Source of the DNA: Naegleria gruberi
Lineage: Eukaryota
Assembly (NCBI GenBank): GCA_000004985.1
Contig: GG738846.1
Length of the DNA: 64,000 nt
Strand: one strand, 5' to 3'
The notes under the pieces were generated by a model that worked only from the letters and a program-made list of their open reading frames with translations, was not told the DNA's origin and did not search any database. Below are positions 1,606 to 57,049 of the stretch, one piece after another. Position 1 is the first letter of the stretch, and each line of letters begins with the position of its first letter. Position numbers and translations under genes: made by a program.

Positions 1606-4092
1606 ATGTTCCTAACTGGAAAGAAGAATATTCTCGGCTCACCAAAGGCTACCACTAACACACCTCCACTATCATCAGCAACAAAACCAGAATTACCAGA
1701 CTTTCAATTGGATGACATATTTACAGTGGAAGAATATGATGCCTTCTATTATATAACTTCAAGAAAGTTGTTCGGTTCATCACCATCATCATCATCAACG
1801 GGTTCTTTGAACGGTGAACAACAATTTAGAGAGGAAAAAGTGGATCTTTCATTGAGTTTTATTAGGAATGTTGATTTGGATATTTTGATTGCATACAGAG
1901 AGGCTTGTTCTTCATCATCTACAATGAGAAAGGAATTGGAGGATGCTATGGAAATGCTTTTTATATTGAACGAGAAGATGACATACTTGAAATCCCTTTC
2001 AGAGAAGGCAGAACAGGCCAGAGAAACAAGAGCTTTGGAAATTGGGAAGAGAAATTTAATTCAAACAATAATGATATTGAAGAGATTGAATTCATTCACT
2101 ACCATTATTGAAAAGATGAAAATTCAAGCATCAAAGAAACAATACAAACAAGTGACAGAGTTTTTGATTGTTTCTAACGAGCTGAAACAATCCCTTGAAG
2201 AATTCAAGACTGTTCCAAAAGCTCAGTTAATTTTCAAGAGATTTGATAATTTTAGACAATCACTTCAAGGAATATTGTTGAAGGATTGTAAAGAGCTGGG
2301 ATCAAAGAAGGATGAAAATTTACAAGGTATCCTCTCAGAAATGTGTCCAATCGTTGATGCTTTGGAGGATGATGTTGTAAGAATAGAGTTGGTTTCTAAA
2401 TTTGCTGCCTTACAACTCTCTACCTATGAATCTCAATTTAAAGACAGGAAATTGGAAAGCATTGATGATCGATTCAAATTTATCAAACAATTGCTCAAGA
2501 ATTTCGAGGAAGAGTACGATCATATTTTCCCACATGATTGGTGTGTTCCACAAGAACTTGTAGTAGAGTTTAGTTTAAAGACCCGAGAATCCATTCTTTT
2601 ATGGTTGAAGAAGGACAGTTCAATAAGTGGTAAACTACTATATCTAGCCATTCTCTCAACAATGAAATTTGAAAGAAACATGCAGTCTCGATTCTATCCA
2701 GAAAAGTCACCAGTACAACCAGCTGCTCATAATGAGGATGAAGTAGAAATCAAAACTCCAAAGAACAAGTACAATTTCAGAGGATTCATAAGCTCATGCT
2801 TTGAAGATCATATGCACGTCTATATCAAGTTTGAGGAAGATGCCATGAAGGAAATTTTGGCCAAAATTGTAAAAAAGGAAACCTGGGATAATGTTAATCA
2901 AGCTAGTAGTTGCCAAGATGTCCTGATCTATGTGATTGAATCAATGAAATCATGTAGTGCTGTGTCGAGTGGAAAAACTTTGAACGATGTTCTTCAAAGT
3001 GTTTTCAGAAAATGTTTAATGAGCTATGCTGATATTCTCATTCAAAAACTTCCTAAAGTTCAAAATACCACACCAACAGAACAAAAGTCTGTCACTTCAA
3101 CAATTACCGGCTATGTTGGAATGACTACCAAGTTAGGTCTATCAGCAGTACTCCCAACTGATACAATTACCACGGAAAAGAAGAGACTCACCGAGAAGGA
3201 GGAAAAGATCATCTTTTACATTATTCACTGTGCAGATTATATTCAACAAAATACTCAACCTTTGGAAGAAGAATTAAGAGGATTACTCCAAGAGCCATAC
3301 TCTGCACAAATTGATCTCTCTCAAGAACAAGAAAAGTTTTTAGGAATTGTAAAGAGTGGTATTGAAATGCTTGTGAATAATTTGATGAATGTTTTGGAAA
3401 AGCCACTCTCTGAAATGTTGGCTAAAAATTGGGGAATTATGGAAAGTGTTGGAGATCAATCTGGATATGTTTCAAACATTGTTCAAAATTTGAATGATAT
3501 TGCGCCATACATTGCCAACTCACTTTCTTTGGATAATTTCAAATTTTTGTGTGATAGATTTACAATTACCTTTATCACAACATTTTTATCCAATATTTAC
3601 AAATGTAAAAAGTTTTCACGAGTTGGAGCTCATCAAATGTTGGTAGATGTCAAATCACTTACTCAATATAGTTTGAGACGTTTACTAGTTCTGGGAAATG
3701 ATAAGAGATTCGAGCAATCAGATATTTCTTCCTTCCAAAAGTTAGTAGACTCTAAAATGCAAAAGATTGAAATTACATTACGTGCATTGGCAGCAGTTCC
3801 TGACAATACCTATGAAATTTATCTTCAAATGCCTGAACATTCTCTCCAAGAGTTGACCAAGTTATTGGAAATGAAGGAAATTTCCAGAAGTGAGAGAAAT
3901 CACATTTTGGATCGTTATCAAAAGGAAGCTGTAAAGAAGGAAGAAACCAAGGATGCATCCTACCTCTCAATGATTGGAACTGGTTCTGCAAAGGTTGGTA
4001 AGGCAACAGTTCAAGCAACCTCAGCAGCCACCTCTGCAATTTTCTCTGCTGGTAAATCAGTAATTAACAAATCAATGTCCATAATAAAGTAA
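1606..4092 (+). CDS. vps53: VPS53, GARP/EARP tethering complex subunit (828 aa)
   Basis: ATG at 1606 and TAA at 4090-4092, single exon. Blocks align to metazoan/fungal VPS53: [24 protein letters not shown] ~ [39 protein letters not shown] ~ [37 protein letters not shown] ~ [42 protein letters not shown] ~ [21 protein letters not shown]. N-terminal coiled-coil region present. Confidence 0.9.
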   Translation: [828 protein letters not shown]

Positions 4093-4297: not shown

Positions 4298-7188
4298 ATG
4301 AACACCCAAAAATTGTTCATTTTCCTTCTCGTATTCCTTTCAGTTGTTACACTTCAAGAAGTAACAGCATCCTTCATCAACTCGAAGAATATCTACACGT
4401 TCGGCTACATTTACTACTCTGGTTTTTCACCACTAGCCATCACACCTGATACTAGCACTCCAATTGAAAATGATCTACTACCCAAATATCTATTCAACGG
4501 CACCGAATCATGGAAATTAATAACAGGAAATGAAACAACCACCACTACTATGAACACTTCTGTTAAACTGCAACAAATAGTTACGGGCATGTCGGTGATG
4601 TTTTACGTGTTGGAATATTTCAATAGTGATACGAATAGTTCTCTTGGGCAAAGAATTCTCGTCTCTGGAAGTAATATGAATGGACAGGGAGCTGTTATCA
4701 AACCACCCTATATCATGTCTACTCCAGAATTAATTTACATCTATTCGAAAGATGGACAAGCTTTTAATCCCTTCTCTAATTCGAATAGGATTATTCACAT
4801 GGCTTGTTTGTATTCATGTTTGATCGTGTCCAGTGATGGTCATGTTCGTTACCATTATGGACTGTTGGAAGTTGGTACTGGAATTTGGAATGTTCGATTT
4901 AGTGCAGTTTCGTATAACGATCCAGATAATGGTCAATTGTTAACTGGTGTGAAATATGTACATGCTACAATTGGTGGATATTATGGTTGTGAAACAATGT
5001 TTGCAGTTACTAATTATGGTCATGTTTTTAGTAGTGGATGTCATAATTCTGGATTGAGAGGAACTTCCTCTTCCTATTCAGATACGAGTGTTAATTTAAT
5101 TCCATCATTGAGGAATATTACAACAGTTTCGGTTGGTTTCTTGGATGGAAATGGAGAGACTGGCAAGACAGCTGCTGGAGCTATTGATGTGAATGGAGTT
5201 TTGTGGACTTGGGGAAGTAATTTTAATGGAATGTTGGGTTGGAATTCGACACTAAATGTTAGTGAAACAGCTCAACCTGTCACCTTAATTCAAAACCCAG
5301 TAACACAAGTTTCATTTGGATTTTCACATGCCATTGTAATGACAAATAATGGAGATGTTTTGTGTTTTGGAGGAAATCTTTACCAGCAATGTGATTTCAA
5401 TCTTCTGATCCATCAATCATGGTCCCTAAAAAAATTGACAATGTTACAAATTCACTTTACTGCACTGCCAAGGAATACATTTCAATTTGCATTGTAATAG
5501 ATGGTACTGTTAAATCATGGGGAGTTTCTTTGAATTCGTATAAAAATCTGGGTCATGCTAGTAATCCAGTTTTTGACACGGTCAACTTGGGACAATCGAT
5601 AACTTCCTCAGTTTACTTGTCAGGAATTCATGGCATGGCAATCACTACAACAGAAAAGGTTAAAGTTTGGGGAAGTAATAATAATGGGATGTTAACACTT
5701 GGAGATGAATACATGATTAGATATCCTAGAAAATTAACAACTTTTGGACTTTCTTATTCGAATGTTTCGGTTGTGATTGCCAAATCAGGAAATGCTTGTT
5801 CATTCTTATTGACTGCTTTGGGGAATGATAGTTCTACCAATGTATTAGAATATTGGGGAGGTTGCAATAACGGTCTTGGATTTTCAGTAACTGCCAATAC
5901 TCCAACACAAGCACTCACATCATTGACATCTAAAAAAGTTATTGACCTAGATATGAAAGGAGAGTTTGCAGTAGCTCTTGTTGAGAATGGGGATGTCTAT
6001 GCTTGGGGAAAGGGAGATTATTACTCTTTTGGCTCTTCATCAAGTAGTAATCCAACTCCTACGTTAATCTATTCGAATGTTAAACTAATCACAGCTGCCT
6101 CTTCCAATACGTATCTATTATTACAGAATGGAACACTATTGGGTATTGGTGATAATACCTATGATGAATTAGGTGTCACTGGACCGACTAGTATTTCAAA
6201 TTTCATTGCATTGAATACTTCAATCATTGATTCGAATAATGAAGTCATTGTTGACATTAAGGGAGGTACACAAACACTCTTTGTCTTGACAGATAAGGGA
6301 AATGTGTACGGTATTGGTTTAAATACTGGAGGTAATAAGTATCTTTCCCCTAGTGCAACTTCCAAATATTCAACTTTTATTCGAATCAATGGAAATGTCA
6401 AAGTTAGAAAGATGTTTGTTGGATTTTACAGTGCTACTGTATTTGTTTCAACAAGTGGAGTACCCTACTATTTCGATGGAACACCAATCAAATTGAATCT
6501 TCCATCAGATGATTCGTATTTGGTTGACTCATTCATGTATTCAAAAAGACACTACTTTATTACCAAAAAAGGGAATGTTTACACATCTGGTTCCAATGAT
6601 TATTATCAGACTTCATACAGAAGTGGTTTTAATCCAGTTATTTCTGCTCCAACTCTCTACATGACAAAAGATTATTTTGATGGAGTACCATATATGGGAA
6701 TTGCTGGATCTTTGGTTGCCGGAATTATTACCAGAGAAGAATATACATGTTTTGGAGTGAATTCTACCGATTCAACTGTCTGCTCTTCTCGTGGTTATTG
6801 TTCTGGACCAGATTCTTGCACATGTGATGAAGGATATTATGGGTTGACCTGTGCCAATTTTTCCTGCAATTCAATTTCCTCATTCAATTCTTCAGTTTGC
6901 TCTGGAAGAGGAATTTGTTCTGGGCCTAATACTTGCTCTAATTGTACAAATTCTATTGGAAACAATTGTGAATATCCTATTTGTTATGGAACTTATTCGA
7001 ATAATGTTTCAGTTTGTAGTGGAAATGGATATTGCACATCAGTAGATACTTGTCAATGTAAATTTGGATTTTATGGAACTAAATGTGAATATAGAACGTG
7101 TTTTGGAGGTTCAGCATTGAATGGAGTTTTACCAAGACAGACAGTCGCCGATGTCTTTTGTAAAAACATTAACAAGCTATTGAAATAA
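4298..7188 (+). CDS. secreted RCC1-like beta-propeller repeat protein with C-terminal tenascin-type EGF repeats; reading frame disrupted near 5395-5420
   Basis: The likely start is the ATG at 4298, giving a signal-peptide-like N-terminus (MNTQKLFIFLLVFLSVVTLQEVTA). RCC1 blade motifs (G.V..WG.N..G.LG) recur in both track ORFs 4235-5497 and 5419-7188. The C-terminus carries CSGRGICSGPNTC / CSGNGYCTSVDTCQC repeats. The two ORFs overlap in different frames. A single-nt shift around 5395 gives continuous RCC1-like sequence (GGNLYQQCDF|QSSDPSIMVPKK...ICIVIDGTVKSWG). No GT-AG intron reconciles the frames. Confidence 0.7.
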
Positions 7189-29304: not shown

Positions 29305-30045
29305 TTTTATCTATACTTGAAACAATCTTTGAACAATATATTATACTAGATGATAGAATATGATGTCTCCAATGGAACTATATATTAAACAATCACCCAC
29401 TAATTGGATAATGCAGGTCGGCAACTGGTAAGAGAGAGAAGGAAAGAGAGTGGAGACAATTTTTTTCGCCATCAAATTTTCGGGCTATTCATTCAATAAT
29501 ACTTTGAATGATTTTGATTGAATGGAGTTTTTGATACAAAAATGGACTTTACGGTAAATTTTTTAATTTTGGTAAAATTGGGTGTAATGATAACACGATT
29601 CTTTTTGTAATGAATCAAGATTCAACATCCATGAATTGGTTTTATTAGCAATTCTTAAACGCCTGTAATTTTGGACATTAAATGATGAATTTATTATTAC
29701 CTTTAATGTTGTGTTCATGCAAAATTCTGTAATTTATACAAAATGATATTAAGGAATTAATTTAATCATTGAATAACAATACTCCAAAATCGAGGATGTA
29801 CATGTGATACGTTGGTATAGGGTTGGGTTTTCTATTTTCTCCCAACTTGTCATTGAGTTATTATTCGAACCGTAGATTGAATCATCATCTCCATCAAGGA
29901 GCGTGTTAAACCTGTCGTTGAACATTTTTACAAAAAAATTCCCGCCAATTCTGACAGTTATAAATTCAAAAAATAAACAATCTTTGGAAGACTAATCACA
30001 ACAATAAAAAAATCACTCTATTGTTCAACAAATACTACTATCAAA

Positions 30046-30519
30046 ATGTCTGAAGATATTAGCAAGGAATTCAACTATAGCGACAAGTACTATGATGACC
30101 AAAATGAATATCGTCATGTTACCTTGCCAAGAGAATTTGGTAATCGTGTTTTTAAACATTTCGATGGAAAATTGCTAGCCGAAGAAGAATGGAGAGGAAT
30201 TGGTATTGAAATGTCGAGAGGTTGGGTTCACGTAAGTATTCTCTTGTTACATGATAATAATTAGTCTTATTATTATTATTTAAAAACAACAACAATTACT
30301 TGCTGATGATGGTATGGTGATTTCTTATTATGATCATGATATTATTATTCAATTGAATAATAACAATGTGTGCTTCTAAAACGTATTTAGTACGGATACT
30401 CACCATCTGAACATCATATTCTCCTCTTCTATAGAAAGTTCTCTGGTAATGGTGTTACTCCAAGAGTCAAACAAGAACAACAATATCAAAAGATTATCGA
30501 GGAAAGAGAGACTTTATAA
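30046..30519 (+). CDS. cks1: cyclin-dependent kinase regulatory subunit CKS1, two exons: 30046-30231 and 30391-30519
   Basis: YSDKYYDDQNEYRHVTLPRE...EEEWRGIGIEMSRGWVH matches the CKS signature (YSDKYYDDEYEYRHV...SEWRxLGVQQSxGWVHY). A GTAAGT donor at 30232 and a TATTTAG acceptor at 30390 define a 159-nt intron. Exon 2 begins YGYSPSEHHILLFYRK (~ YMIHEPEPHILLFRR). Confidence 0.85.
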
Positions 30520-30857
30520 GCGAGTTTATGAATCTCTTCAATTAATTTATTTAGAGAGTATGAAGTTTTAATCTTCAAGCATGGCAATTTATTGTATATC
30601 CCATCCAACATCCAACTCTCTAACTCTGTGTGCTGCTATCCAAAGAAGTTTATACTATTAATCATACTCTCAACAAAACCTAAGTCAAGATGTATTACAA
30701 ATTTCTATTTGATGATGATTCTCATTACTATGAACATGTTAATTCTATGATCAATTGATACAAGTCATCATCCAATAAATTTGTTTTCCAAATTTCCATC
30801 AACAATGATATTCGCAAGGAAACATCATGTTTCTATTATTACAACAATCATTAAAAA

Positions 30858-32369
30858 ATGTATCATACAACAACGAGTCTGAGGAAATTTATTGCCTCTA
30901 CCTCCAATGTTGCATCGCCAGGAAATCAATTAGGTGATTTATTGATCAATACAATTTGTAGTAGTAATAATAATAGGAGAGGATATCATGCAATGGTATC
31001 CGTTCTAATGAATCAATTCAATCAACAACACAATCATCACCATCAACAACATTATCAATACAAGTACCATAATGGCCATCATCAACAGTACTATCAACAA
31101 CAACAACAACCAACACCAACATCATCATCAGAGGAGAATGTTGTTGATCATCTCGTTTCTGATCTCAGGAGGGAAAGAAGGAGGAATAAGAGAAACAAAT
31201 TTGCAATCCTCTTGCTATTCATCAGTCTTGGATTGTTGTCGTATGAATATTGGCAATTGAGACAAGCCTATGATCAACGACATGGTTTTGAGGATTTAAA
31301 CAAATTATTCAGGAATGAACCATCTAGATTGGAGGCTTACTTGCCACCATGGATTCAAGAGAATTTAAAGAAGGCAAGTGACAAGGTTGATGTAGAATCG
31401 GAGGAAGTTAAAAAGTGGGTCAATATTGCAAAGAATTTGAAAAATCAAAAGGAATACGAAGATGCTATTAGAATCTTGGAGAATATCTTGTGGAAATATC
31501 CATCAAATTTTCAGGCAAGAGAATTGTACGGACTAATCTTCCTTGATAGAGCAGCTTTTCGTCCTGCTTTGAGACAATTTGAATTGGCAGCAACCTATGC
31601 CACCTCTTCAAACTCAGAGGCATCATGCTACAATAATATTGGTGTCTGCTTCTCAAGACTGAAGCTTGATAAGGAGGCTGTTGAGGCCTATGATAAGGCT
31701 CTCAATATTGCCCAATTTGATGCCAAGAATAGAGGATTATTCTATTTTAACAGAGCCATTTCTCACAACGCATTGGGAAATTTTCAATTGGCCATTCATG
31801 ATTACACTAGATCGATTCAATTTGATGAGCATGACCAATCATTCCTCTCCAAAAAATACAAATTCAGATCTGTTTGTTACAATACTCTCAAACAATACCA
31901 AAAAGCACTCGATGATTTGAATCTTTCCATTCAACACTACCAAGAAGATAAAACCAGTGCTAACAATCCCAGTATTGGAGCAGAGCTCTATTTTTTCAGA
32001 GCTAAAGCTGAAAGAAAGTTGAAGAATTATGAAGCAAGTATCCAAAGCATTGACAAATCAATTGATTTGAAAAAGAATGATGCCAACTATTTCCATACTC
32101 GTGCTGTTGCTTGGAGAAAGATGGGTCAATACCAGAAAGCAGAAGCAGACCACAATATGGCAATTCAACTCAAACCTAACAATACCAAATTCAAATCAAG
32201 TTTGGAAAAGACTAAAAAGTTAGCTCGTACTCAACCTCCTCAAACGCAACCAGCTCAAAAAGAGGAAACCACACCTGGTACAAGTGCACCTCCCTCAACA
32301 ACAGACAACTTGACAAACCAACAACCACAAACCCCAACTCCAAATCCAACAGAGAATAAAGCTGATTAA
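30858..32369 (+). CDS. TPR-repeat protein with N-terminal membrane anchor
   Basis: ATG at 30858. His/Gln-rich N-terminus, one hydrophobic helix (FAILLLFISLGLLSYEYW), then about 8 TPR-like repeats (AIRILENILWKYPSNFQARELYGLIFLD..., YFHTRAVAWRKMGQYQKAEADHNMAIQLKPNN). Pro/Thr/Gln-rich C-terminal tail. Confidence 0.7.
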   Translation: MYHTTTSLRKFIASTSNVASPGNQLGDLLINTICSSNNNRRGYHAMVSVLMNQFNQQHNHHHQQHYQYKYHNGHHQQYYQQQQQPTPTSSSEENVVDHLVSDLRRERRRNKRNKFAILLLFISLGLLSYEYWQLRQAYDQRHGFEDLNKLFRNEPSRLEAYLPPWIQENLKKASDKVDVESEEVKKWVNIAKNLKNQKEYEDAIRILENILWKYPSNFQARELYGLIFLDRAAFRPALRQFELAATYATSSNSEASCYNNIGVCFSRLKLDKEAVEAYDKALNIAQFDAKNRGLFYFNRAISHNALGNFQLAIHDYTRSIQFDEHDQSFLSKKYKFRSVCYNTLKQYQKALDDLNLSIQHYQEDKTSANNPSIGAELYFFRAKAERKLKNYEASIQSIDKSIDLKKNDANYFHTRAVAWRKMGQYQKAEADHNMAIQLKPNNTKFKSSLEKTKKLARTQPPQTQPAQKEETTPGTSAPPSTTDNLTNQQPQTPTPNPTENKAD

Positions 32370-32505
32370 TCATCAGTTCACTGATTTTTCGCATGCACTA
32401 CATCTTGTGATAGGCATCTCTTAAATTTAGGAGGTCGGCAACCATAAAGTAACCTGTCTTCCATCTATGGAAAGTATGAAATTAATTTGAAAAAATCAGC
32501 GCCGT

Positions 32506-34143
32506 ATGCCATTAACATATCAAAGAAAAATGTCAAACAGCACCACCTCAACTCACCCAAATGCCACTCCCATGCAATTAACTGCCGACCACATTGAATC
32601 TTCTAATGACAACTCACCAACTCTGATAGAATTAAAAGAAGTTAACAACAAGGAAGAAGAAGAACAAACTCAACAACAAGAAACAAACTTTGAGGATGAC
32701 AATGATGTCTGTAGTGATTCAGATAGTGTCTATGTTCAGGTTGCTACCAGAAAAACTCAACGTCTTACCCTCACTTCTATCAAACCACAAATTGACAAGT
32801 TTCGAATAGATAGAGCTCAAAATTCATCACCAATTGCTTCCGGAAATGTTGCTGGAAACAATCTAACTACTGTAAAGAAACCAACAACCGAATCAATCTT
32901 CACCAAAACAACTGCAAAAACAGGGAAATCTGGCAAGTCCTCTCTCTCTTCTGTCACCTTTCGAATTCCAACATGTTGTGGTATGATTGAATTGAATCTA
33001 GTGAGAGTCTTATCTCTATTGGGAATGTTATTGAATATTGGTGCATTCATTGCCATTGCAGTGATTGTTGGAAATGCTTTCAAATTGGATGCCAAGAAAG
33101 AAACTAATCTCCTCTTGCTCAGAACGGAATTCTTGACCAATTACTATAAAATAGATTGCATTGTCAAGACGGCATGTGTAACTGGTGATATCCAACTCGT
33201 TGCTGAATATAACATGCTGCAACCCAATGCTAGTCAGCAATTACTGGAATTGAAGAAGAATCTTCCGGCCGAATCTTTGAAAAATCTCAAATTGGATTTT
33301 GCCTCACCTCAATACGTTGGTCTGAACAATCTCATTATGGGTTATATTGCACAAGGAGATTTGGATTCTGCCAACTCTGTTCGAAAAAGTTTATCCTATC
33401 TCATTATGGATGGCTATACTAATATCCTTTTAAATATAGTTCGTACGGAAATTGATAAATTAAGTGAAGAGAAACAGGATTATTTGAGATTATTTGGAGC
33501 TGTCAATATGAGTATGGTTTTATTTGGTGTGGCTATTAGTGTGCCAATTGTCTTGTTGATTTTCGCCATTGCATTGTCGACAGATGTGGCCAGTAAGAGA
33601 AAGCTCAATAAGGCAACAGGTATCATGATTATGGAAGCAATTGCAAGTGAAAAGTACAATCCAATATTTAAAACATTTTGTGAGAAGGAATCATGTTTGG
33701 ATTATTTTACATTATTGGATAATTGTCATGATTATCATGAATTATGTGATAGAGCTCATGATTTGAGATATTCTAATCATACATATGGCAATGATCATTC
33801 AGAATTGAATTCTGCCTCATCAATTTCTGAAGACAAAATCCACAAGGAACAATTCGAAACCATTGAACGAAACAAGTATGAGGTGGCATTTAAGATATTT
33901 TCCGAATTCATTGATCCAAATGGTGAAACTCCAATCAAAACAAGTAAGATACTCCAAGACCGAGTAAAGAATGTATTGGATGAATTTAATGTTGGCAGCG
34001 TATTGGACGATGATTTGTTTGATGAATTGGAAAAGCAAGTGTGTGAAATGATTAGTGAGCACTTTATTAAATTTAAACAACAAATCAAACAAAAAAGAAG
34101 ACAAATTAATTCAAAAAACAAGATTGAAAAGGTCAATAAATAA
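32506..34143 (+). CDS. membrane protein with C-terminal RGS-like domain
   Basis: ATG at 32506. Acidic N-terminus, two or more TM helices, then a C-terminal region resembling an RGS fold (FETIERNKYEVAFKIFSEFIDPNGETPIKTSKILQDRVKNVL...ISEHFIKF). The domain assignment rests on pattern memory only. Confidence 0.45.
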   Translation: MPLTYQRKMSNSTTSTHPNATPMQLTADHIESSNDNSPTLIELKEVNNKEEEEQTQQQETNFEDDNDVCSDSDSVYVQVATRKTQRLTLTSIKPQIDKFRIDRAQNSSPIASGNVAGNNLTTVKKPTTESIFTKTTAKTGKSGKSSLSSVTFRIPTCCGMIELNLVRVLSLLGMLLNIGAFIAIAVIVGNAFKLDAKKETNLLLLRTEFLTNYYKIDCIVKTACVTGDIQLVAEYNMLQPNASQQLLELKKNLPAESLKNLKLDFASPQYVGLNNLIMGYIAQGDLDSANSVRKSLSYLIMDGYTNILLNIVRTEIDKLSEEKQDYLRLFGAVNMSMVLFGVAISVPIVLLIFAIALSTDVASKRKLNKATGIMIMEAIASEKYNPIFKTFCEKESCLDYFTLLDNCHDYHELCDRAHDLRYSNHTYGNDHSELNSASSISEDKIHKEQFETIERNKYEVAFKIFSEFIDPNGETPIKTSKILQDRVKNVLDEFNVGSVLDDDLFDELEKQVCEMISEHFIKFKQQIKQKRRQINSKNKIEKVNK

Positions 34144-34787
34144 ATAAAATTTAATATTACTTTGTGATTAACTTGAAATGTTATTAACGAACAATCAAAA
34201 AAGTCCAAGAAAACAAAGTCAAAAGTTACCGTAGGTACAATTTTAACAACCAATCCACTATTTTACACTCCTCCACAAAACGTACTAAATAATAACAAAA
34301 AATAATGATTGAGAATATCATAACCTTTGTATAATATAAACTCTAACACTTTTAATAATTGCAAATTTTTTTGAAATTTGCTTGTTGCTACTTGTTTTAT
34401 TGTTAAAAGCTTAACGCTTACTGCGATCTAATATTGGTTTGTTAGAGGTTATCTTTTTCCACTCCTTTGAGAATTTGGATAATAGAAGGTTGTAATGATA
34501 AAGAAGAATTTAATAATTTAATAGACCAACATGGAATTGTTTTACAAAGCATAACAATATTAAGTTTAGTTCAATACAAAATCTAATTCTAATAACTTCG
34601 TTTGAAAAAAAAGGGTAAATACTACAATGTTAACGATTTACTTAACATAGGTTCTGTTGTTGCTATTGAGTTGTTAATTAAAATTAATAATTAATGTTAT
34701 TGTTGTTTCGAATTTAACTAACAAACCTTGAATCCAAACTTTTGAATATTGGTATTCGTTTTTCCAATAAGAAAGCTATTATTATTA

Positions 34788-35009
34788 TCAGAGATAATTG
34801 ATTGTTGCTTTTAAATTTTGGTGGTTTTGTAGTGCTGATAAATTTGTTTGTTGTAAAAGGCTATTTTTATAAGAAAATCCTTTCCATGACTTTGAAATAG
34901 TGGTTTCTTTTTTAAATTGTTTAACCAAGGACTTTGCTAATTCGTTATTTGTGGTAAAATCAAAAATTTGGTCTTCTTGATGATGTAATATATGAAAATA
35001 AATTGACAT
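34788..35009 (-). CDS. small-ORF family member, type 1 (MSIYFHILHHQEDQIFDF...QFKKETTISKSWKGFSYKN)
   Basis: ATG at 35009 directly after an A-run. Conserved with 35847-36146 and, at the protein level only, with type 2 copies. No known homolog. Confidence 0.35.
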   Translation of the reverse strand: MSIYFHILHHQEDQIFDFTTNNELAKSLVKQFKKETTISKSWKGFSYKNSLLQQTNLSALQNHQNLKATINYL

Positions 35010-35242
35010 ATTTTTTTAAATAAACTATTTTATCATTACCCAATCATGAAAGGCTAATGGGGAGAGATTATATTTTGGTGTGGATGAATTATAATCCAAT
35101 GGCCAAACAATGAATGATTTTATTGATTATTTGTTTGAAAGAGATAGTGAACTAATATTTAGAAATTGCAAGAGAGGTCACAAAATTCAAAAGACCTTAA
35201 TGAAATAATAATGAAGAATTTTCTTTTCCAAAAAGAAATAAT

Positions 35243-35491
35243 TTAATCTTTAAAAGAAAATAACTTCTCAATTTGTTTAACAAAAGCTCCAATAGAAGAG
35301 AAAATCAATATTGGTGGTGATAAATTTGTTTTTTGTTTATCAGAAAATCCATGCCATAATTTTCTAGCGGTTTCTTTTTTAAATTGTTCAACGAAAGACA
35401 TTACTAATTCGCTATCTATAATGCTACTAATAACAAAACCAAAAATTTGATCTTCCTGATGATATAATAAATGAAAAGAATAACTCGACAT
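35243..35491 (-). CDS. small-ORF family member, type 2 (MSSYSFHLLYHQEDQIFGF...ELVMSFVEQFKKETARKLWHGFS)
   Basis: ATG at 35491 after an A-run. Paralog of 36791-37048. It shares the M-S-x-Y-x-F-H-L-L-x-H-Q-x-D-Q-I-F and x-E-L-x-x-S-x-V-x-Q-F-K-K-E-T motifs with type 1 despite nucleotide divergence. Confidence 0.35.
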   Translation of the reverse strand: MSSYSFHLLYHQEDQIFGFVISSIIDSELVMSFVEQFKKETARKLWHGFSDKQKTNLSPPILIFSSIGAFVKQIEKLFSFKD

Positions 35492-35846
35492 TTTTTTTTA
35501 ACTTTTTAGAGTATATTAATATCCAAGCACTCTGTGATTAACTTGAAATGATATTCACGAACCATCAAAAAAGTCCAAGAAAACAAAGTCAAAAGTAACC
35601 GTAAGTACAATTTTATCACTCCTCCACAAAAATAAACTCTAACAAAATTTGGATAATAGAAGGTTATAACAATAAAGAAGAATTTGATAATTTAATAGAC
35701 CAACATGGAATTGTTTTACAAAGCATAACATATATCTCCTTCTTGTACGTCTCTTTATCCGATTTATAAATACCTTTAAAATTACATTTGCATACTCATA
35801 TTACACATCTATTTATAAACAAGCTCACCAAATCAAAAAATGGTAA

Positions 35847-36146
35847 TCATAGAATCAAACGTCCACACAAGGACTCAGATATTGGAATGAGTTTTATGGG
35901 ATATACTGAAATTACAATTGTTGTTTCGAATTCAACTAACAAACCTTTGAACATTGGTATTCGTTTTTCCAATAATAAATTTGTTTGTTGTAAAAGGCTA
36001 TTTTTATAAGAAAATCCTTTCCATGACTTTGAAATAGTGGTTTCTTTTTTAAATTGTTTAACCAAGGACTTCGCTAATTCGTTATTTGTAGTAAAATCAA
36101 AAAGTTGGTCTTTTTGATGATGTAATATATGAAAATAAATTGACAT
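35847..36146 (-). CDS. small-ORF family member, type 1, copy 2
   Basis: ATG at 36146. Near-identical to 34788-35009 over the first about 60 codons, then a different tail. Confidence 0.35.
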   Translation of the reverse strand: MSIYFHILHHQKDQLFDFTTNNELAKSLVKQFKKETTISKSWKGFSYKNSLLQQTNLLLEKRIPMFKGLLVEFETTIVISVYPIKLIPISESLCGRLIL

Positions 36147-36790
36147 ATTTTTTTAAATAAACTATTTTATCATTACCCAATCATGAAAGGCTAATGGGGG
36201 AGAGATTATATTTTGGTGTGGATAAATTATTATAATCAATACTAATTACAATAAATCAACAATAAATTTGGAATATTTTATTTTTGAAATAATTCATTTT
36301 TTAGTTTATTTTTGGATTTAGATTTTGGCTTTTTGGTTCAATTTGGCTTTTTGCCGATTTTTTATTCACCTATATCCAAAAACTGGTTTGGGATGGATTT
36401 TGGATATTAATATACTCTCTATTATTAATAAAATTAACATAAACAAACCATTGAATACTTCATTATTAATATCAGTGGATCTATTTACTTTTGTTTTCAC
36501 TATTGAAAAATTCTTTAATCAATTAGGAATTAAAAGTTTCTTAATTGTTCCACTTATATATTCGATGAACCCAGTGGTGTCCATTAATTCGAATAGAAGA
36601 ATGTGATCATTTAGATGTTCTTTAACAATATCAATGAATCAACTTTGATAGTATTTATTACTATTTTACAATTATCTGATTCAACAGTGGAATCCATTAA
36701 TAATTATAGTGTTAGAATTAGGAACATGAGGAATCTGATTTCAAGAAGAGGAAATAATTTCTTATTTGTCTATTTTCTAACATGCTTGAT

Positions 36791-37048
36791 TCAATAGAAT
36801 TCAAAGAGAATGAGGTTCAAACTCTCTCCAAGCTGCAAAGAAATTGGTTTGATAGGATGAAGAAACTTTTCTAGATAAGATGTTGACGGTATTGTAGAAA
36901 ATCTATTCCATAACTTTGAAATGGTGGTTTCTTTTTTAAATTGTTCAACCAAAGACATTGCTAATTCGTTATCTATAATGTTACTAATAATAAAACCAAA
37001 AATTTGATCTTTCTGATGATACAATAAATGAAAAGAATAACTCGACAT
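36791..37048 (-). CDS. small-ORF family member, type 2, copy 2
   Basis: Internal ATG at 37048 (MSSYSFHLLYHQKDQIFGFIISNIIDNELAMSLVEQFKKETTISKLW). Upstream of it, the track ORF is read-through of the repeat. Confidence 0.35.
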   Translation of the reverse strand: MSSYSFHLLYHQKDQIFGFIISNIIDNELAMSLVEQFKKETTISKLWNRFSTIPSTSYLEKFLHPIKPISLQLGESLNLILFEFY

Positions 37049-37076
37049 TTTTTTTTTAATAGTTTCAATATTATTT

Positions 37077-38089
37077 TTAATTGTTACTTTCGGTAGAAAC
37101 ATTTGGATCATAATTGGTAAATTCAATATTTGCATTCTTTGTTCTGGAAAATTCACCATGCTTCACTTTTAATTTACATGTGGCATTAAAGTGGCATCCT
37201 TGTTGTGCCATTTTACAAACAACTCGAGCAATATTTTTACAATCATCAATACCAGAATGATGTTTGCCAAGGAGAGGTAATTTCAGTGCATTTAACATTG
37301 TCAACATGCCATTCACCTTTTCCATATTGTAAAACTTGGCAAATACATCCTTGACATTGCACCATTGTGTGAAATGAGATCCAATTAAGGAAATTGTTTG
37401 TTTCTCAAAGAAAACTTGATGTGGAATCATTGTTTTTAAGTCCCAATCTTTGAGAATTGTTAAAAACTAATCAAATTGAAAATATTTACCTCCACAAGTG
37501 GCCATCAGGATGTTATCTTTGGTTGGTTTTTCTCCTAAATGAGACATTAACCATTCATTGTGTCTCTTGAGTGCTTCTTCGAATGAAACTCCAGATTCGA
37601 CCATTTCTTGAGTAATTCCAGTCAATTTGGTGCATTCTTCATTAATTTTTGGAATTCTTCTTGTTTTTACATAGTTTTGAATTTCATCCACAACAACCAA
37701 TTGCTTTTCACTTTCAAATTTTAACAAGACTGATGGAAATTCAATAATTTCCATATCATAATTTCTATTAGTTTTACAATCGTCTGCAAAAACAGCTTCA
37801 AAATCCAACACACAAATATACTTGAATGCAGTGGAACTACTACTTCCACTTGATGACTCTGCAACAGGAGCTTTACTAGTAAATGCATTTGATTTTGTTG
37901 ATTCGGAATGAAATCTTCTCTCTGGTTTATCTTTTTGATTGGCATTACTTGTTGTATTTACACTCTTAAATTGTTTACCACCAGAGAAGAAGAAGAAGAT
38001 GAAGATTTAGTGGCAGTGGTCTTTTTACTTGTTGTTTTTGATGAAGAAGAGTTATTTTGATGTTCTGATCTGAAATTGAATTGTGACAT
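37077..38089 (-). CDS. ERI1-like DEDDh 3'-5' exonuclease, two exons: 37490-38089 and 37077-37447; one apparent frameshift in a (TCT)n run
   Basis: Exo motifs: YICVLDFEAVFADDC (motif I), ATCGG|DWDLKTMIP (motif II, spanning a 42-nt GTAAAT...CTCAAAG intron at 37448-37489), HSGIDDCKNIARVVCKMAQQGC (motif III). The ATG at 38089 (MSQFNFRSEHQNNSSSSKTTSKKTTATKSSSSSS) is +1 out of frame with the catalytic ORF. One missing T in TCTTCTTCTTCTTCT (about 37975-37990) would fuse them: ...SSSSSSGGKQFKSVNTTS.... Confidence 0.8.
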
Positions 38090-54661: not shown

Positions 54662-55948
54662 TCACTTCCTTCCAAATCCACCACATTCACATCTCACACC
54701 ATCACCACCACCACTTTGATTTTTACTGTATTTATGGGTACTACTGGTATTCCTGGCAGATTGAATGTGTTTTGAATTGTTAGATCTGATACTACTGGTG
54801 GTACCATTCTGATCAGATCCTTGATTTTCCTTGAGAAGGTGAATGGGTGTGTAGAGAGCCAAAGCAGTGAATGCAAAAACAAGAATTCCCAAAGTGTTAC
54901 ATATTGAATATCCAAGTGCAAAATGACTGAGTGCTGGATCTTGTTGAGCAACACCACTGCCACCTGCAAAAGCTTCGAATAGAAAACATCCAAATAATCC
55001 ACTTTGTAAAATTAGTACTTTAACAATGGAATTTCTCTTCTTTTTTTGATCTTCAGCTATTTTTGAAATTGTTTTAAGAACTGCATATGCTGCAATCTAA
55101 TTAAAATTGTAAATTGACTCGTAAACATTTTGTAAACATACCACCAACATTGTAATTTGAGTTGTCACCTCCAACACAAATATTATAAAACATAAAATAT
55201 AGCCGTACGTGACCAAATCATCTCCAGCATAGGCCAATCTATTTAAAATAGTGACAATACTCACAAATACAGTAATCAAAACCAATCCAACTGAATTAAT
55301 ACCTGTAAAAATTGTTACAATTTTTGTAAAGTAAAATAATTTTTTGGATCGAAGTGTTCCACTCGAGAGTCTAAATGTTTCAATGAAAACCAACGTTACA
55401 AACCAAACGATAATGACCATCACTTGAACATTCATCAATGCCATACATATTTCAAGGGATTCTGCAATTGCATAAATGACAATTTGTTCGAATGGAATTC
55501 CAACTTCATGGGGTGTTAGTCCGAGTGTATTGTTGAACCAGAGTAGAGTTTGAAAACCCTCAATTATTGTTTCATTATTTCCATACCTATCCGAAAAATA
55601 ATCTTGATATCTGAATCCAAATGAAATGTTAAGACTATCGAAAATAATCCTCGAAATTAACAAGACAATTTCCAAGCAACACATAACCAACACTCCATAA
55701 ATAATTCTTTTTTGATTTTTCATTAAATTTCCCCTTTCCCGCCTCAACTTGAGCAGGAAGTAAATGATAAAGAGGAGTAGACCAATAGTGATGAACAAGT
55801 AGATGATGACTATTGTCATTTCAATGTATGATACGATGAGTGGTTCAAGTCTTAGGAGAGATGTTAGTACAGGTGGGAGAGTATTGTTTGACAATGACAT
55901 TGATAACAGTGATGATTCCAGTTGCGGTAGTGGTGATGAGGTTGTCAT
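54662..55948 (-). CDS. 7TM-like multi-pass membrane protein; reading interrupted by an in-frame TAG at about 55097
   Basis: ATG at 55948. At least 7 hydrophobic helices before the stop at 55097 and 2-3 more after it in the same frame (IAAYAVLKTISKIAEDQKKKRNSIVKVLILQSGLFGCFLFEAFAGG...GILVFAFTALALYTPIHLL, matching track ORF 54662-54892). The hydrophilic tail may continue in a +1 frame (track ORF 54502-54690). Confidence 0.5.
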
Positions 55949-56202
55949 TTTGTTTTTTTTCTAATGGAATTTTGTAGCTCTTATTAAAAGTTACTATTAG
56001 TGACAGTTTGAAAAAAAACCATCTCTCCCATCTTTAAATGTTTTGACATGGTATGGTGTATTTTTAATCCTTGCAAATAATTAAAGGAAACCTTGATAAA
56101 TAAAAAACAAGATACCATTTCCAAACAAAGTAACTTTTTTGGGTTGTAATATTCTTTCTGATGAATTTAATTTCAAAAAAACAATTAAAAATATCAAAAA
56201 AA

Positions 56203-56478
56203 ATGTCAATTTATTTTCATTTATTATTTCACCAAGAAGACCAAATTTTTGGTTTTTTTATTCAACAACAAATTAATTTAATTCCATTACCTTTGGGTTT
56301 TTTGATAAATTCATTTAATAACAAAACTAATAGAAATGAATTTGAAAAACCCTTCTTCAAGCGCGTTGCGTGTGTTTGTGAAATTGGTTGTGGCCACTTT
56401 TTGATCCTGATTATATTTGGCAAGGGCTATATATATGGAAACGAGTTCAAATTTTTTCTAATGTCGTTTCTATCATAA
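56203..56478 (+). CDS. small-ORF family member, type 3, copy 1
   Basis: ATG at 56203 after an A-run. Its first 19 codons are conserved with the 34.8-37.0-kb copies, then it diverges. Confidence 0.3.
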   Translation: MSIYFHLLFHQEDQIFGFFIQQQINLIPLPLGFLINSFNNKTNRNEFEKPFFKRVACVCEIGCGHFLILIIFGKGYIYGNEFKFFLMSFLS

Positions 56479-56728
56479 ATAGGAACCAAAATACAACAAA
56501 CCAACATCGTCTAAGTAGTTGGAAGATGTTAACAAATCTGATCTCAAAAAATTCATAAATACATTCATCATTTGTGTAAAAAAGTGAACATATTTAAATG
56601 TTACATTGTAAATTAATAAAACAAGATTGAGAATTAGTAATAATTATGATGAAGATGACATCTGTTCCAAGCTTAGTGGAATACTTTTAGACAGATGCTA
56701 TTTAATAAATAAAAATATCAAAAAAAAA

Positions 56729-57049
56729 ATGTCAATTTATTTTCATTTATTATTTCACCAAGAAGACCAAATTTTTGGTTTTTTTATTCAACAACAAATT
56801 AATATAATTCCAATACATATGGGTTCTTTTATAAATTCATTTAATAACAAAACTAATAGAAATGAATTTGAAAAACCCTTCTTCAACTACGTTGTGTGTA
56901 TTTGTGAAATTGGTTATAGATGGCAAGTTGTGTCTGTTTTCCACTATTTTGATTGGTATGTTCAAGTTTACAAGATCATCAATATAAGCTCCTTCAAAAC
57001 CTTGTATTTCATAAACCATCAAAAATTCATAAATATCAACAATATCTGA
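56729..57049 (+). CDS. small-ORF family member, type 3, copy 2
   Basis: ATG at 56729 after an A-run. Near-identical to 56203 over about 60 codons. Confidence 0.3.
   Translation: MSIYFHLLFHQEDQIFGFFIQQQINIIPIHMGSFINSFNNKTNRNEFEKPFFNYVVCICEIGYRWQVVSVFHYFDWYVQVYKIINISSFKTLYFINHQKFININNI

What the first reader, a model, noticed from the sequence alone, without database searches (positions are those of the whole stretch)
34150..37070. Tandemly amplified family of small ORFs (MSxYxFHLLxHQxDQIF...QFKKET) with a second cluster at 56.2-57.0 kb
Six copies lie in the window: four on the minus strand in a duplicated about 1.4-kb unit, and two on the plus strand in a duplicated about 0.5-kb unit. Every copy starts with an ATG immediately after an A-run. 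The first about 20 codons are conserved at the nucleotide level across all copies. Type 1 and type 2 copies also share a downstream ELAxSLVxQFKKET...WxGFS block at the protein level despite nucleotide divergence, which argues for genuine coding constraint. The 56-kb copies diverge completely after codon 20. This pattern suggests either a conserved 5' module (leader, or element terminus) fused to different bodies, or a fast-evolving small-protein family. I know of no matching family.
Basis: seen in the sequence. Interest (0 to 1): 0.55.

Follow-up and report, generated by a model that had tools for sequence, protein, structure and literature searches.

The report
Unannotated small-ORF repeats in Naegleria
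Two gene-free gaps of a Naegleria gruberi chromosome hold six locally duplicated copies of a short open reading frame that matches nothing known; only its first 60 bases look conserved and the rest drifts like junk, so it is most likely a young or decaying species-specific gene family and not a new kind of system.

Summary
The repeats are real. There are exactly six copies, in two tandem arrays: 34.16-37.07 kb on the minus strand and 56.18-57.15 kb on the plus strand. The window is Naegleria gruberi nuclear DNA. The ORFs match no Pfam, PDB or Rfam family. Among 1.84 billion predicted proteins they match only one, the T3a orthologue from a 97.5%-identical Naegleria in an ENA metagenome.

The type 1/type 2 block is conserved at the nucleotide level (72-78%), with paralogue dN/dS of about 0.65-1.8 in that block. 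Between the two strains the ORFs have omega 0.89, against 0.21 for four neighbouring genes. They also carry a 2-nt frameshift, have unrelated tails, intergenic GC content and codon usage like chance ORFs.

Only the head is conserved: the A-run, the ATG and about 60 nt. It shows 1 change in 183 nt against 26 in 520 nt elsewhere. In-frame indels and shared start sites suggest the first 50-57 codons once coded for protein.

Best reading: a lineage-restricted small-ORF family, spread by local tandem duplication, now largely drifting. The T3 copies carry the head joined to sequence with no detectable similarity to the other bodies. I found no transposon signature. Genome-wide copy number and expression could not be tested. 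Interest is low to moderate.

The parts
36791..37048 (-). T2b small ORF (85 aa + stop), family ATG at 37048. It starts 29 nt after the stop codon (37077-37079) of the ORF I took as the last exon of a 3'-5' exonuclease gene (assigned by eye; no Pfam match).
   Evidence: The orthologous first 39 codons lie on metagenome contig L003.
35847..36146 (-). T1b small ORF (99 aa + stop).
35243..35491 (-). T2a small ORF (82 aa + stop).
34788..35009 (-). T1a small ORF (73 aa + stop). Relative to T1b, its tail is interrupted by an insertion that brings in a stop codon.
56203..56478 (+). T3a small ORF (91 aa + stop, counted from the family ATG). It has the head plus a body with no significant similarity to T1/T2.
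   Evidence: Orthologue P0004 lies on contig L001.
56729..57049 (+). T3b small ORF (106 aa + stop, counted from the family ATG).
   Evidence: Its head is also present at the end of L001.
35529..37071 (-). Tandem unit B of cluster 1. In order: T2b, a 650-nt spacer, T1b, then repeated spacer pieces D5/D7, D4 and D3.
34159..35514 (-). Tandem unit A of cluster 1. In order: T2a, a 235-nt spacer, T1a, then D5/D7, D4 and D3. It lies 14 nt from unit B. Together the two units fill the whole 2.9-kb gap between the convergent RGS-domain ORF (stop at 34143) and the putative exonuclease exon (stop at 37077).
56180..56703 (+). Tandem unit 1 of cluster 2 (T3a). Homology with unit 2 begins about 23 nt upstream of the ATG.
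56704..57148 (+). Tandem unit 2 of cluster 2 (T3b). An assembly gap follows at 57557-57606.
56186..56262 (+). Example of the conserved head module (A-run + ATG + first 20 codons). The equivalent stretches in the other copies are 56712-56788(+), 34956-35017(-), 35429-35508(-), 36093-36154(-) and 36986-37065(-).
   Evidence: Between strains the heads show 1 change in 183 nt.

Best explanation
The copies are an unannotated small-ORF family restricted to the Naegleria gruberi lineage. It grew by local tandem (segmental) duplication inside two unusually long intergenic gaps and is now mostly drifting.

Shown:
- There are two tandem arrays. The unit edges are blurred and the units differ by many indels.
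- Homology between the three types starts at the translation-start context.
- In T1 and T2 the first 50-57 codons keep their frame. The tails are unrelated.
- Between two closely related strains the ORF bodies change at the neutral rate, mostly by amino-acid-changing substitutions plus one frameshift.
- The 60-nt head is significantly more conserved than the rest.

Inferred:
- The ancestor was a real short protein-coding gene of about 60-100 codons with a normal N. gruberi A-rich start context.
- Unequal crossing-over copied it: a T2+T1 pair duplicated as a block, and T3 duplicated on its own.
- The T3 pair arose when about 85 nt (position -23 to +60) of a T1-like copy was copied, or converted, into sequence with no detectable similarity to the other bodies, 20 kb away in the opposite orientation.
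- Most or all present copies are under little or no selection as proteins. They are in a birth-and-death or decay phase.
- Any residual function lies in the head, either as an N-terminal peptide of about 20 residues or as a DNA/RNA element.
For: - Organism: a long ORF in the window is 100% identical to an NCBI 'predicted protein [Naegleria gruberi]'. A U6 snRNA is present.
- Copy number and layout.
- No known family: Pfam, a PDB profile search and Rfam all gave nothing. A profile search of 1.84 billion proteins gave only P0004, the T3a orthologue. JGI metagenomes, IMG/VR and GTDB genomes gave nothing.
- Gene-like origin: homology among the types begins at the A-run/ATG. An A-rich stretch before the ATG is also common at the starts of the long ORFs in the window. 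All indels inside the shared 50-57 codons are multiples of 3. Under neutral drift a 57-codon frame stays free of stops at 23% divergence in only 6-10% of simulations.
- Drift: paralogue dN/dS is 0.83 (T2a/T2b) and 0.4-0.8 (T1/T2), and T3a/T3b differ by 0 synonymous and 6 non-synonymous changes. Between strains, the pooled small ORFs give pS 0.032, pN 0.029 and omega 0.89; four neighbouring genes give omega 0.21.
- Drift, continued: there is a 2-nt frameshift at 56440. The tails are not significantly similar. GC is 0.25-0.29 against 0.35 for genes, and the codon-usage score equals that of chance ORFs nearby. The AlphaFold2 model has pLDDT 46.
- Head constraint: 1 change in 183 nt against 26 in 520 nt, Fisher P = 0.006.
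- The duplication is real and not an assembly artefact: contig L001, assembled independently, spans T3a and the T3b head.
Against: - The head is conserved about equally at all three codon positions across paralogues (my reading of alignment A3). Selection on a peptide alone does not predict that.
- The statistics rest on few substitutions: 13 in the small ORFs between strains.
- Omega near 1 with an excess of non-synonymous changes would also fit diversifying selection on functional peptides.
- Expression, translation and genome-wide copy number are unknown.
- The internal layout of cluster 1 is not confirmed in the second strain, whose contig L002 is rearranged just past the RGS stop codon.
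- Cluster 2 lies about 500 nt from an assembly gap, so further copies may be hidden there.
Confidence: 0.5

Rival explanations
1. The functional unit is the head itself, acting as a non-coding DNA or RNA element. The poly(dA) tract plus about 60 nt might work as a promoter or initiator module, a protein-binding site or a short RNA. The ORFs that follow it would then be incidental.
For: - Between strains only the head is conserved, while the bodies and spacers change at or above the synonymous rate.
- Head conservation across paralogues is similar at all three codon positions (alignment).
- T3 shares nothing but the head.
- The ORFs are absent from the predicted-protein collection searched, which does hold this genome's NCBI proteins.
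Against: - The element begins exactly at a start context that resembles those of the long ORFs in the window, and the ATG is invariant.
- T1/T2 homology continues in frame for 50-57 codons with only in-frame indels.
- There is no Rfam match.
- The consensus fold is weak: -6.7 kcal/mol, with one covarying pair.
- Sm-like RAU4-6GR motifs occur once per 1.5 kb in this window, so the one in the head carries no weight.
Confidence: 0.2
2. This is a functional family of small peptides with a conserved N-terminal leader and a hypervariable body under diversifying selection. The architecture would resemble toxin, defence or effector peptide families, in which a leader is kept and the mature part evolves fast.
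For: - The head is conserved and the bodies are fast-evolving. Between strains T2b has 4.5 non-synonymous changes against 0.5 synonymous. T3a and T3b differ by 6 non-synonymous and 0 synonymous changes.
- The copies are amplified in tandem.
- The T3 ORFs stay open for 71-86 codons after the head, which happens at only about 2-3% of random positions in these regions.
Against: - Pooled omega is 0.89, which cannot be told apart from 1.
- A frameshift and unrelated tails fit decay better than diversification.
- By inspection, the head has acidic residues and only about 6 hydrophobic residues, so it is not a classical signal peptide. No predictor was available to check this.
- GC content and codon usage look intergenic.
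- The structure prediction has low confidence.
Confidence: 0.15
3. The units are copies of a non-autonomous mobile element (MITE-like or another kind), and the conserved head is its terminus.
For: - Homology starts at a sharp boundary, the A-run.
- Both tandem units begin about 23 nt upstream of an ATG.
- A perfect 19-nt inverted repeat lies at 35508-35526 and 36400-36418.
- An exact 21-mer lies downstream of both clusters in the same relative orientation.
- Assembly gaps lie nearby.
Against: - The copies are in tandem arrays and are not dispersed. There are only six in 64 kb and no solo heads.
- Unit edges fade into diverged similarity and do not end sharply.
- The inverted repeat is not at the unit ends, contains a 10-nt palindrome and has no flanking target-site duplication (inspection).
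- No transposase lies nearby.
- There are no matches in other sequence collections.
Confidence: 0.07
4. The arrays are small-RNA genes, of a spliced-leader-RNA or snRNA type: tandem units with a conserved 5' part and a variable remainder.
For: - The units are in tandem and share a conserved segment of about 60-80 nt.
- The head contains AAUUUUUGG, which fits the Sm-site consensus (inspection).
Against: - There is no Rfam match even at E <= 1.
- There is no supported secondary structure.
- Sm-like motifs are common in this AT-rich DNA.
- No splice donor follows the head (inspection).
- The units are heterogeneous, unlike spliced-leader arrays.
- To my knowledge, trans-splicing has not been described in Naegleria.
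Confidence: 0.03

Closest known systems
Taxonomically restricted (orphan) gene families that evolve by tandem duplication and birth-and-death
   Same: - No homologue outside a very narrow lineage.
- Short ORFs in local tandem arrays.
- Relaxed or absent constraint.
- Copies at different stages of decay, with variable stop positions.
   Different: - Only the first 60 nt are conserved.
- One pair (T3) keeps the head alone.
- Expression has not been shown, so calling these 'genes' is itself unproven.
Peptide families with a conserved leader and a hypervariable mature part (for example conotoxin-type or defence-peptide precursors; comparison from general knowledge)
   Same: - Conserved N-terminal segment.
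- Rapidly changing remainder.
- Tandem amplification.
- Excess of amino-acid-changing substitutions.
   Different: - The head is not a recognisable signal peptide.
- There is no cysteine framework or processing site.
- Frameshifts and unrelated tails are present.
- Omega cannot be told apart from 1.
MITEs and other non-autonomous DNA transposons
   Same: - Short repeated units in AT-rich intergenic DNA.
- One perfect 19-nt inverted repeat nearby.
   Different: - No terminal inverted repeats at the unit ends.
- No target-site duplications.
- The copies are tandem, not dispersed.
- Homology starts at a start codon and runs in frame.
Spliced-leader RNA gene arrays
   Same: Tandem units with a conserved 5' segment followed by less conserved sequence, plus an Sm-like motif.
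   Different: - No splice donor after the head.
- No RNA structure and no Rfam match.
- The units are heterogeneous in length and sequence.
Sedlin/TRAPPC2-type longin N-termini (a resemblance recalled from memory: the pattern xYFxIIGxxDxPIFExEF)
   Same: The spacing of the aromatic, hydrophobic and Asp residues in MSIYFHLLFHQEDQIFGF looks superficially similar.
   Different: - No Pfam match even at E <= 10.
- No match of the family profile to any PDB sequence at E <= 10.
- The predicted structure is unreliable and all-helical.
I treat this as a chance resemblance.

Membership tests
Any described protein family (Pfam / PDB / NCBIfam) | Significant sequence-profile match | tested here: not met
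   - Pfam: no family for any of the six ORFs at E <= 10.
- PDB: a profile of alignment A2 gave 0 hits at E <= 10.
- NCBIfam: only noise, E 0.15.
- The scan of 1.84 billion proteins gave only the T3a orthologue P0004 and one spurious repeat protein at E 8e-4.
Protein-coding gene under purifying selection | dN/dS clearly below 1 between orthologues and paralogues | tested here: not met
   - Between strains omega is 0.89, against 0.21 for four neighbouring genes.
- Paralogues give 0.4-0.83 overall and 0.65-1.8 beyond codon 20.
Protein-coding gene under purifying selection | Reading frame kept across copies (no stops; indels in multiples of 3) | tested here: inconclusive
   - Met for codons 1 to 50-57 of T1/T2: the indels are 3, 12 and 3 nt.
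- Neutral simulation keeps the frame open in 6-10% of runs.
- Not met in the tails: a 2-nt frameshift in T3a between strains, a frame-breaking insertion in T1a and unrelated T2a/T2b tails.
Protein-coding gene under purifying selection | Composition and codon usage like the genome's genes | tested here: not met
   - GC is 0.25-0.29 against 0.35.
- The codon score is -0.04 to 0.12. Real-gene 57-codon chunks score 0.22 +/- 0.13, and chance ORFs in the same spacers score -0.04 to 0.08.
Non-autonomous DNA transposon (MITE) | Terminal inverted repeats at the unit ends with flanking target-site duplications | tested here: not met
   - Only one inverted repeat was found (19 nt perfect, 35508-35526 / 36400-36418). 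It does not coincide with the unit ends and has no duplicated flank.
- No inverted repeat was found in cluster 2.
Non-autonomous DNA transposon (MITE) | Many dispersed copies in the genome | not testable with these tools
   No tool could scan the N. gruberi genome. Within the 64-kb window the copies occur only in the two arrays.
Spliced-leader RNA / Sm-class snRNA genes | Covariance-model match or a conserved secondary structure with an Sm site | tested here: not met
   - No Rfam hit at E <= 1.
- The alignment fold gives -6.7 kcal/mol with one covarying pair.
- Sm-like motifs occur once per 1542 nt in the window.
Conserved-leader / hypervariable peptide families | Leader is a signal or pro-peptide; the mature part is under positive selection (omega > 1) | tested here: inconclusive
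   - Omega is 1.7 for T2b (39 codons) and 0.57 for T3a; pooled it is 0.89. The counts are too small to decide.
- No signal-peptide predictor was available. By inspection the head lacks a typical hydrophobic core.
Lineage-restricted tandem duplicate family | Present at the orthologous locus of a close relative and absent from more distant relatives | tested here: inconclusive
   - T3a, the T3b head and the T2b head are present at syntenic positions in a 97.5%-identical Naegleria from metagenome ERZ929261.
- No predicted protein in the library searched, whatever its source, matches the family profile apart from P0004.
- The two 21.6-kb loci fetched from N. fowleri and N. lovaniensis are not syntenic and hold no copy.
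- Whole genomes of other Naegleria species could not be scanned at the DNA level.

The most novel reading that the evidence does not exclude
The 60-nt head is a genuine functional module that N. gruberi reuses in front of interchangeable, fast-changing bodies. It could be an N-terminal peptide tag of about 20 residues, used for targeting, assembly or processing, on a family of hypervariable small proteins. Alternatively it could be a compact promoter/initiator cassette that seeds new ORFs. In either case these arrays would be a site of ongoing de novo gene birth in a free-living heterolobosean.
Probability: 0.12. Interest if true: 0.55.

Novelty: new member of a known kind. Interest (0 to 1): 0.25.

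Why it matters
If the main reading is right, the finding adds a small unannotated orphan family to the N. gruberi genome. It also gives a clean local example of tandem duplication followed by decay. That is useful for annotation and of limited wider interest.

The one feature worth following up is the contrast between a constrained 60-nt head and neutrally drifting bodies. If the head proves to be functional, the arrays could serve as a small model for how new short ORFs arise and die in a protist. Public transcriptome and long-read data could test this directly.

Tried and rejected
1. Word-index protein search with T2a found nothing. It even missed P0004, which shares five 5-residue words with the query, so that negative result is weak. 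The exhaustive profile search replaced it.
2. P0005 (E 8e-4) is a 484-aa translation of some other repeat. It has no head motif and I rejected it as spurious.
3. The sedlin/longin resemblance recalled from memory has no support from profiles.
4. AlphaFold2 on the six-sequence alignment gave pLDDT 46. I did not run a fold search because it would be meaningless on such a model.
5. T1b and T2b tails looked similar by eye (LEK...PIK..IS..ESL..LIL), but BLASTP gives E 0.35, so I dropped the idea.
6. I looked for an intron after the head or after the WxGFS block. No plausible GT donor is present (inspection).
7. The spliced-leader/snRNA idea is not supported.
8. Scans of JGI metagenomes, IMG/VR and GTDB genomes, using protein patterns, the head as a DNA pattern and the 21-mer, all came back empty.
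9. Exact-protein look-ups of window ORFs, meant to recover the N. gruberi annotation around the clusters, failed, including for P0001. I therefore could not list which gene models the official annotation places at 34-37 kb.
10. Exact look-ups of the small ORFs and of chance ORFs in the spacers found none in the 15-billion-protein collection.
11. The N. fowleri and N. lovaniensis loci around RGS homologues are not syntenic and hold no copy. This is uninformative about conservation.
12. Literature searches for Naegleria repeats or orphan genes, and for the metagenome project PRJEB11402, returned nothing relevant.
Full report
**Organism and setting**

The window is eukaryotic nuclear DNA from Naegleria gruberi. 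The 828-aa Vps53 ORF at 1606-4092 is 100% identical to an NCBI 'predicted protein [Naegleria gruberi]' from a contig of about 1 Mb. A U6 snRNA lies at 63912-64000. The neighbouring long ORFs carry typical eukaryotic domains (Vps53, dymeclin, an EGF-repeat kinase, RGS, TPR).

Cluster 1 fills the whole 2.9-kb gap between two convergent ORFs. One is the RGS-domain ORF, whose stop is at 34143. The other is an ORF whose stop is at 37077 and which I took, by eye, for the last exon of a 3'-5' exonuclease gene; it has no Pfam match. Cluster 2 lies upstream of a 283-aa ORF (55097-55948, minus strand; membrane-protein-like by eye, no Pfam match) and about 500 nt from a 50-N assembly gap. Both clusters have 26-28% GC, against 33-36% in the genic parts of the window.

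**Check of the observation**

The six ORFs exist at the stated places. They share the head MS(I/S)Y(S)FH(L/I)L(F/Y/H)HQ(E/K)DQ(I/L)F(G/D)F, with 15 invariant residues over the alignment.

- A nucleotide profile of the head finds exactly these six in the 64 kb (E 1e-17 to 1e-19). The next hit has E above 1.
- On the minus strand two adjacent units (35529-37071 and 34159-35514) each carry a T2 copy followed by a T1 copy. Behind them lie shared spacer pieces. The repeated segments are 90-98% identical, with offsets of 1137-1557 nt, so the units differ by several large indels.
- On the plus strand two T3 units are spaced 526-533 nt apart and are 93% identical.
- Heads from the two clusters are 83-90% identical at the nucleotide level.
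- Each ATG follows a run of 7-9 A. An A-rich stretch before the ATG is also common at the starts of the long ORFs in the window, so this is the usual start context here and not a special signature.
- The T3 bodies have no significant similarity to the T1/T2 bodies. Only a faint SF(I/V)..F..(K/E)T.R trace remains.

The ELAxSLVxQFKKET block is not conserved 'despite nucleotide divergence'. Blastn aligns T1 with T2 at 72-78% identity over 166-203 nt. Beyond codon 20 dN/dS is 0.65-1.8.

**Relatives elsewhere**

- No Pfam family matches any copy at E <= 10.
- The family profile matches no PDB sequence.
- Rfam has no match in either cluster, even at E <= 1.
- A profile search that read all 1.84 billion representative proteins found one true hit, P0004 (100 aa, E 6e-21), and one spurious repeat protein.
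- The library searched held no other match, whatever the source organism. None of the window's small ORFs is in the 15-billion-protein collection, although that collection does hold this genome's NCBI proteins such as P0001. They therefore appear to be unannotated.
- JGI metagenomes, IMG/VR and GTDB genomes hold nothing similar.

P0004 sits on a 1414-nt contig of ENA metagenome assembly ERZ929261. That contig is 97.5% identical to window 55401-56820, so it is the orthologous locus of a close Naegleria relative. The same assembly gave two more orthologous contigs:

- L002 covers window 29614-34143 and runs 357 nt into cluster 1.
- L003 covers the putative exonuclease exon plus the first 39 codons of T2b.

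Contig L001 spans T3a and the T3b head, so the T3 duplication is real and predates the split of the two strains. L002 shows that the end of cluster 1 is rearranged between the strains.

**Selection**

Between the two strains, the neighbouring genes behave as constrained genes:

| Gene | Synonymous changes | Non-synonymous changes | Omega |
|---|---|---|---|
| RGS | 12 | 3 | 0.07 |
| Putative exonuclease exon | 4 | 0 | 0 |
| Four neighbours pooled | 23 | 19 | 0.21 |

The small ORFs do not behave this way:

- T2b has five nucleotide changes in 39 codons. They alter four residues (K13E, I25F, S32Y, L33F); the path-averaged count is 4.5 non-synonymous and 0.5 synonymous.
- T3a has 5 non-synonymous and 2 synonymous changes, plus a 2-nt insertion at 56440 that replaces the last 12 residues.
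- Pooled, pS is 0.032, pN is 0.029 and omega is 0.89. The non-synonymous to synonymous ratio differs from that of the neighbours (Fisher P = 0.02).

Other measures agree:

- The T3a body (4.2% different) changes as fast as the spacer behind it (5.2%).
- Paralogue comparisons give dN/dS of 0.83 for T2a/T2b and 0.4-0.8 for T1/T2. T3a and T3b differ by 6 non-synonymous and 0 synonymous changes.
- The C-terminal tails are unrelated or frame-shifted between copies.
- GC content and codon usage cannot be told apart from those of chance ORFs in the same spacers.
- AlphaFold2 gives no confident fold, with pLDDT 46.

**Evidence for a coding origin**

- Homology among the three types begins precisely at the start context.
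- All indels within the first 50-57 codons of T1/T2 are multiples of three.
- Under simulated neutral divergence of 23%, the frame stays free of stops in only 6-10% of runs.
- An open run as long as the T3 bodies occurs at 2-3% of positions in these regions.

Taken one at a time these are modest. Together they suggest that the ancestor was a translated short gene.

**The head**

Across the three orthologous heads there is 1 change in 183 nt. Bodies and spacer show 26 changes in 520 nt (Fisher P = 0.006). The Poisson probability of seeing at most 1 change is 0.03 at the synonymous rate of the neighbouring genes.

Among paralogues the head is also the best conserved part, except in the T1a/T1b pair. 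By my reading of alignment A3, conservation is about equal at the three codon positions. Either constraint acts at the nucleotide level, or the T3 head was copied recently from a T1-like copy. The T3 and T1 heads differ by about 9%, similar to the 10% between T2a and T2b, which fits the second idea. The head shows no supported RNA structure.

**Mobile-element test**

- Unit edges are not sharp.
- There are no terminal inverted repeats at the unit ends and no target-site duplications.
- There are no solo heads.
- No transposase-like ORF is present.
- A perfect 19-nt inverted repeat (35508-35526 / 36400-36418) and an exact 21-mer downstream of both clusters remain unexplained. Neither defines an element.
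- Whether copies are dispersed elsewhere in the genome could not be tested, because no tool scans this genome.

**Verdict**

The repeats are real and belong to no described family. The evidence does not support a conserved protein. The most likely account (confidence about 0.5) is a lineage-restricted small-ORF family. It was born as a short gene, was copied by unequal crossing-over, and is now drifting. T3 carries the head joined to a body with no detectable similarity to the others.

Rival readings and their rough probabilities:

- The head is a non-coding functional element (0.2).
- The family is a conserved-leader, hypervariable peptide family (0.15).
- The units are a mobile element (0.07).
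- The units are small-RNA genes (0.03).

This is a new member of a familiar kind: an orphan tandem family. Interest is low to moderate. The contrast between the constrained head and the drifting bodies is the one aspect worth a cheap follow-up with public genome and RNA-seq data.

Noticed in passing
window 34407-34427 (-) and 57524-57544 (+): An exact 21-mer, ATCGCAGTAAGCGTTAAGCTT, lies 360-480 nt downstream of the last ORF of each cluster, in the same orientation relative to the ORFs. It is relatively GC-rich within AT-rich DNA. None of 100 shuffles produced a match. The second copy ends 12 nt before an assembly gap. In cluster 1 it sits in a segment of about 200 nt that is present in unit A and absent from unit B. 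GTDB genomes and IMG/VR contain no match.
   Followed up: partly
window 35508-35526 (-) and 36400-36418 (+): A perfect 19-nt inverted repeat, TTGGATATTAATATACTCT, which contains a 10-nt palindrome. Its two arms flank T1b and its spacers and are 873 nt apart. The same motif sits beside the D3 piece in the related strain (L002, about 4560-4590). No target-site duplication is present. It may mark an old inversion or duplication breakpoint.
   Followed up: partly
window 35788-36006 (+), antisense to the T1b tail: A 73-aa antisense ORF gives a sub-threshold match to the CarboxypepD_reg-like domain (PF13715: E 3e-4, 21 bits, cutoff 32). It also gives a weak match to the SusC/RagA N-terminus (TIGR04056, E 0.05). 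This is probably a chance similarity in AT-rich sequence.
   Followed up: partly
window 34472-34556 and 35646-35730 (+ strand reading): Repeat piece D4 is 95% identical between the two units. On the plus strand it reads as (K/R)IWIIEG.N.KEEF.NLIDQHGIVLQSIT in both units. It has no significant Pfam or PDB match (best E 0.055 and 0.37). It could be a fragment of another dead gene carried inside the unit.
   Followed up: partly
L002 4514-4870 compared with window 34144-34790: Just past the RGS stop codon the related strain is rearranged. D3, with its 35-nt flank, is followed directly by the homologue of 34616-34708. D4 and the segment holding the 21-mer are missing. The last 62 nt of the contig match nothing in the window. 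The cluster is therefore structurally polymorphic, or the short-read contig is chimeric at the repeat.
   Followed up: partly
L003 1-110 compared with window 37467-37600: The metagenome contig joins an upstream piece of the putative exonuclease coding sequence (...VVVDEIQNYVKTRRIPKINEECTKLTGITQEMV) almost directly to the intron. About 100 nt of exon present in the window are skipped. This is either a deletion or alternative structure in that strain, or an assembly artefact.
   Followed up: no
window 57557-57606 and 60067-61235: These are two assembly gaps, of 50 N and 1169 N. The apparent GC dip to 13.5% at 60-62 kb in the composition profile is caused only by the Ns. The 2.5 kb between the gaps is AT-rich (26% GC), has no long ORF and contains a 47-nt repeat of 2.1 copies at 59408-59506.
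   Followed up: partly
window 63912-64000 (-): A U6 spliceosomal RNA gene (Rfam RF00026, 65.9 bits), cut off by the end of the window.
   Followed up: no
window 37013-37010 (T2b codon 13) and 36111-36108 (T1b codon 13): Both unit-B copies have AAA (Lys) at codon 13. Both unit-A copies, both T3 copies and the T2b orthologue in the related strain have GAA (Glu). The flanking codons differ between T1b and T2b, so this looks like a parallel G-to-A change and not gene conversion.
   Followed up: no
P0004 / L001 880-895 compared with window 56285-56295: Three clustered differences in T3a between the strains (LIPLPLG against LIPIHMG) make the related strain's T3a match T3b of the window (IIPIHMG). 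This suggests a short gene-conversion tract between the two T3 copies in one of the lineages.
   Followed up: no
tool behaviour: The word-index protein search reported no candidate for T2a. Yet P0004, which is in the same collection, shares five consecutive 5-residue words with it (HQEDQ...QIFGF). Negative results from that tool for short AT-rich ORFs should therefore not be trusted on their own.
   Followed up: yes
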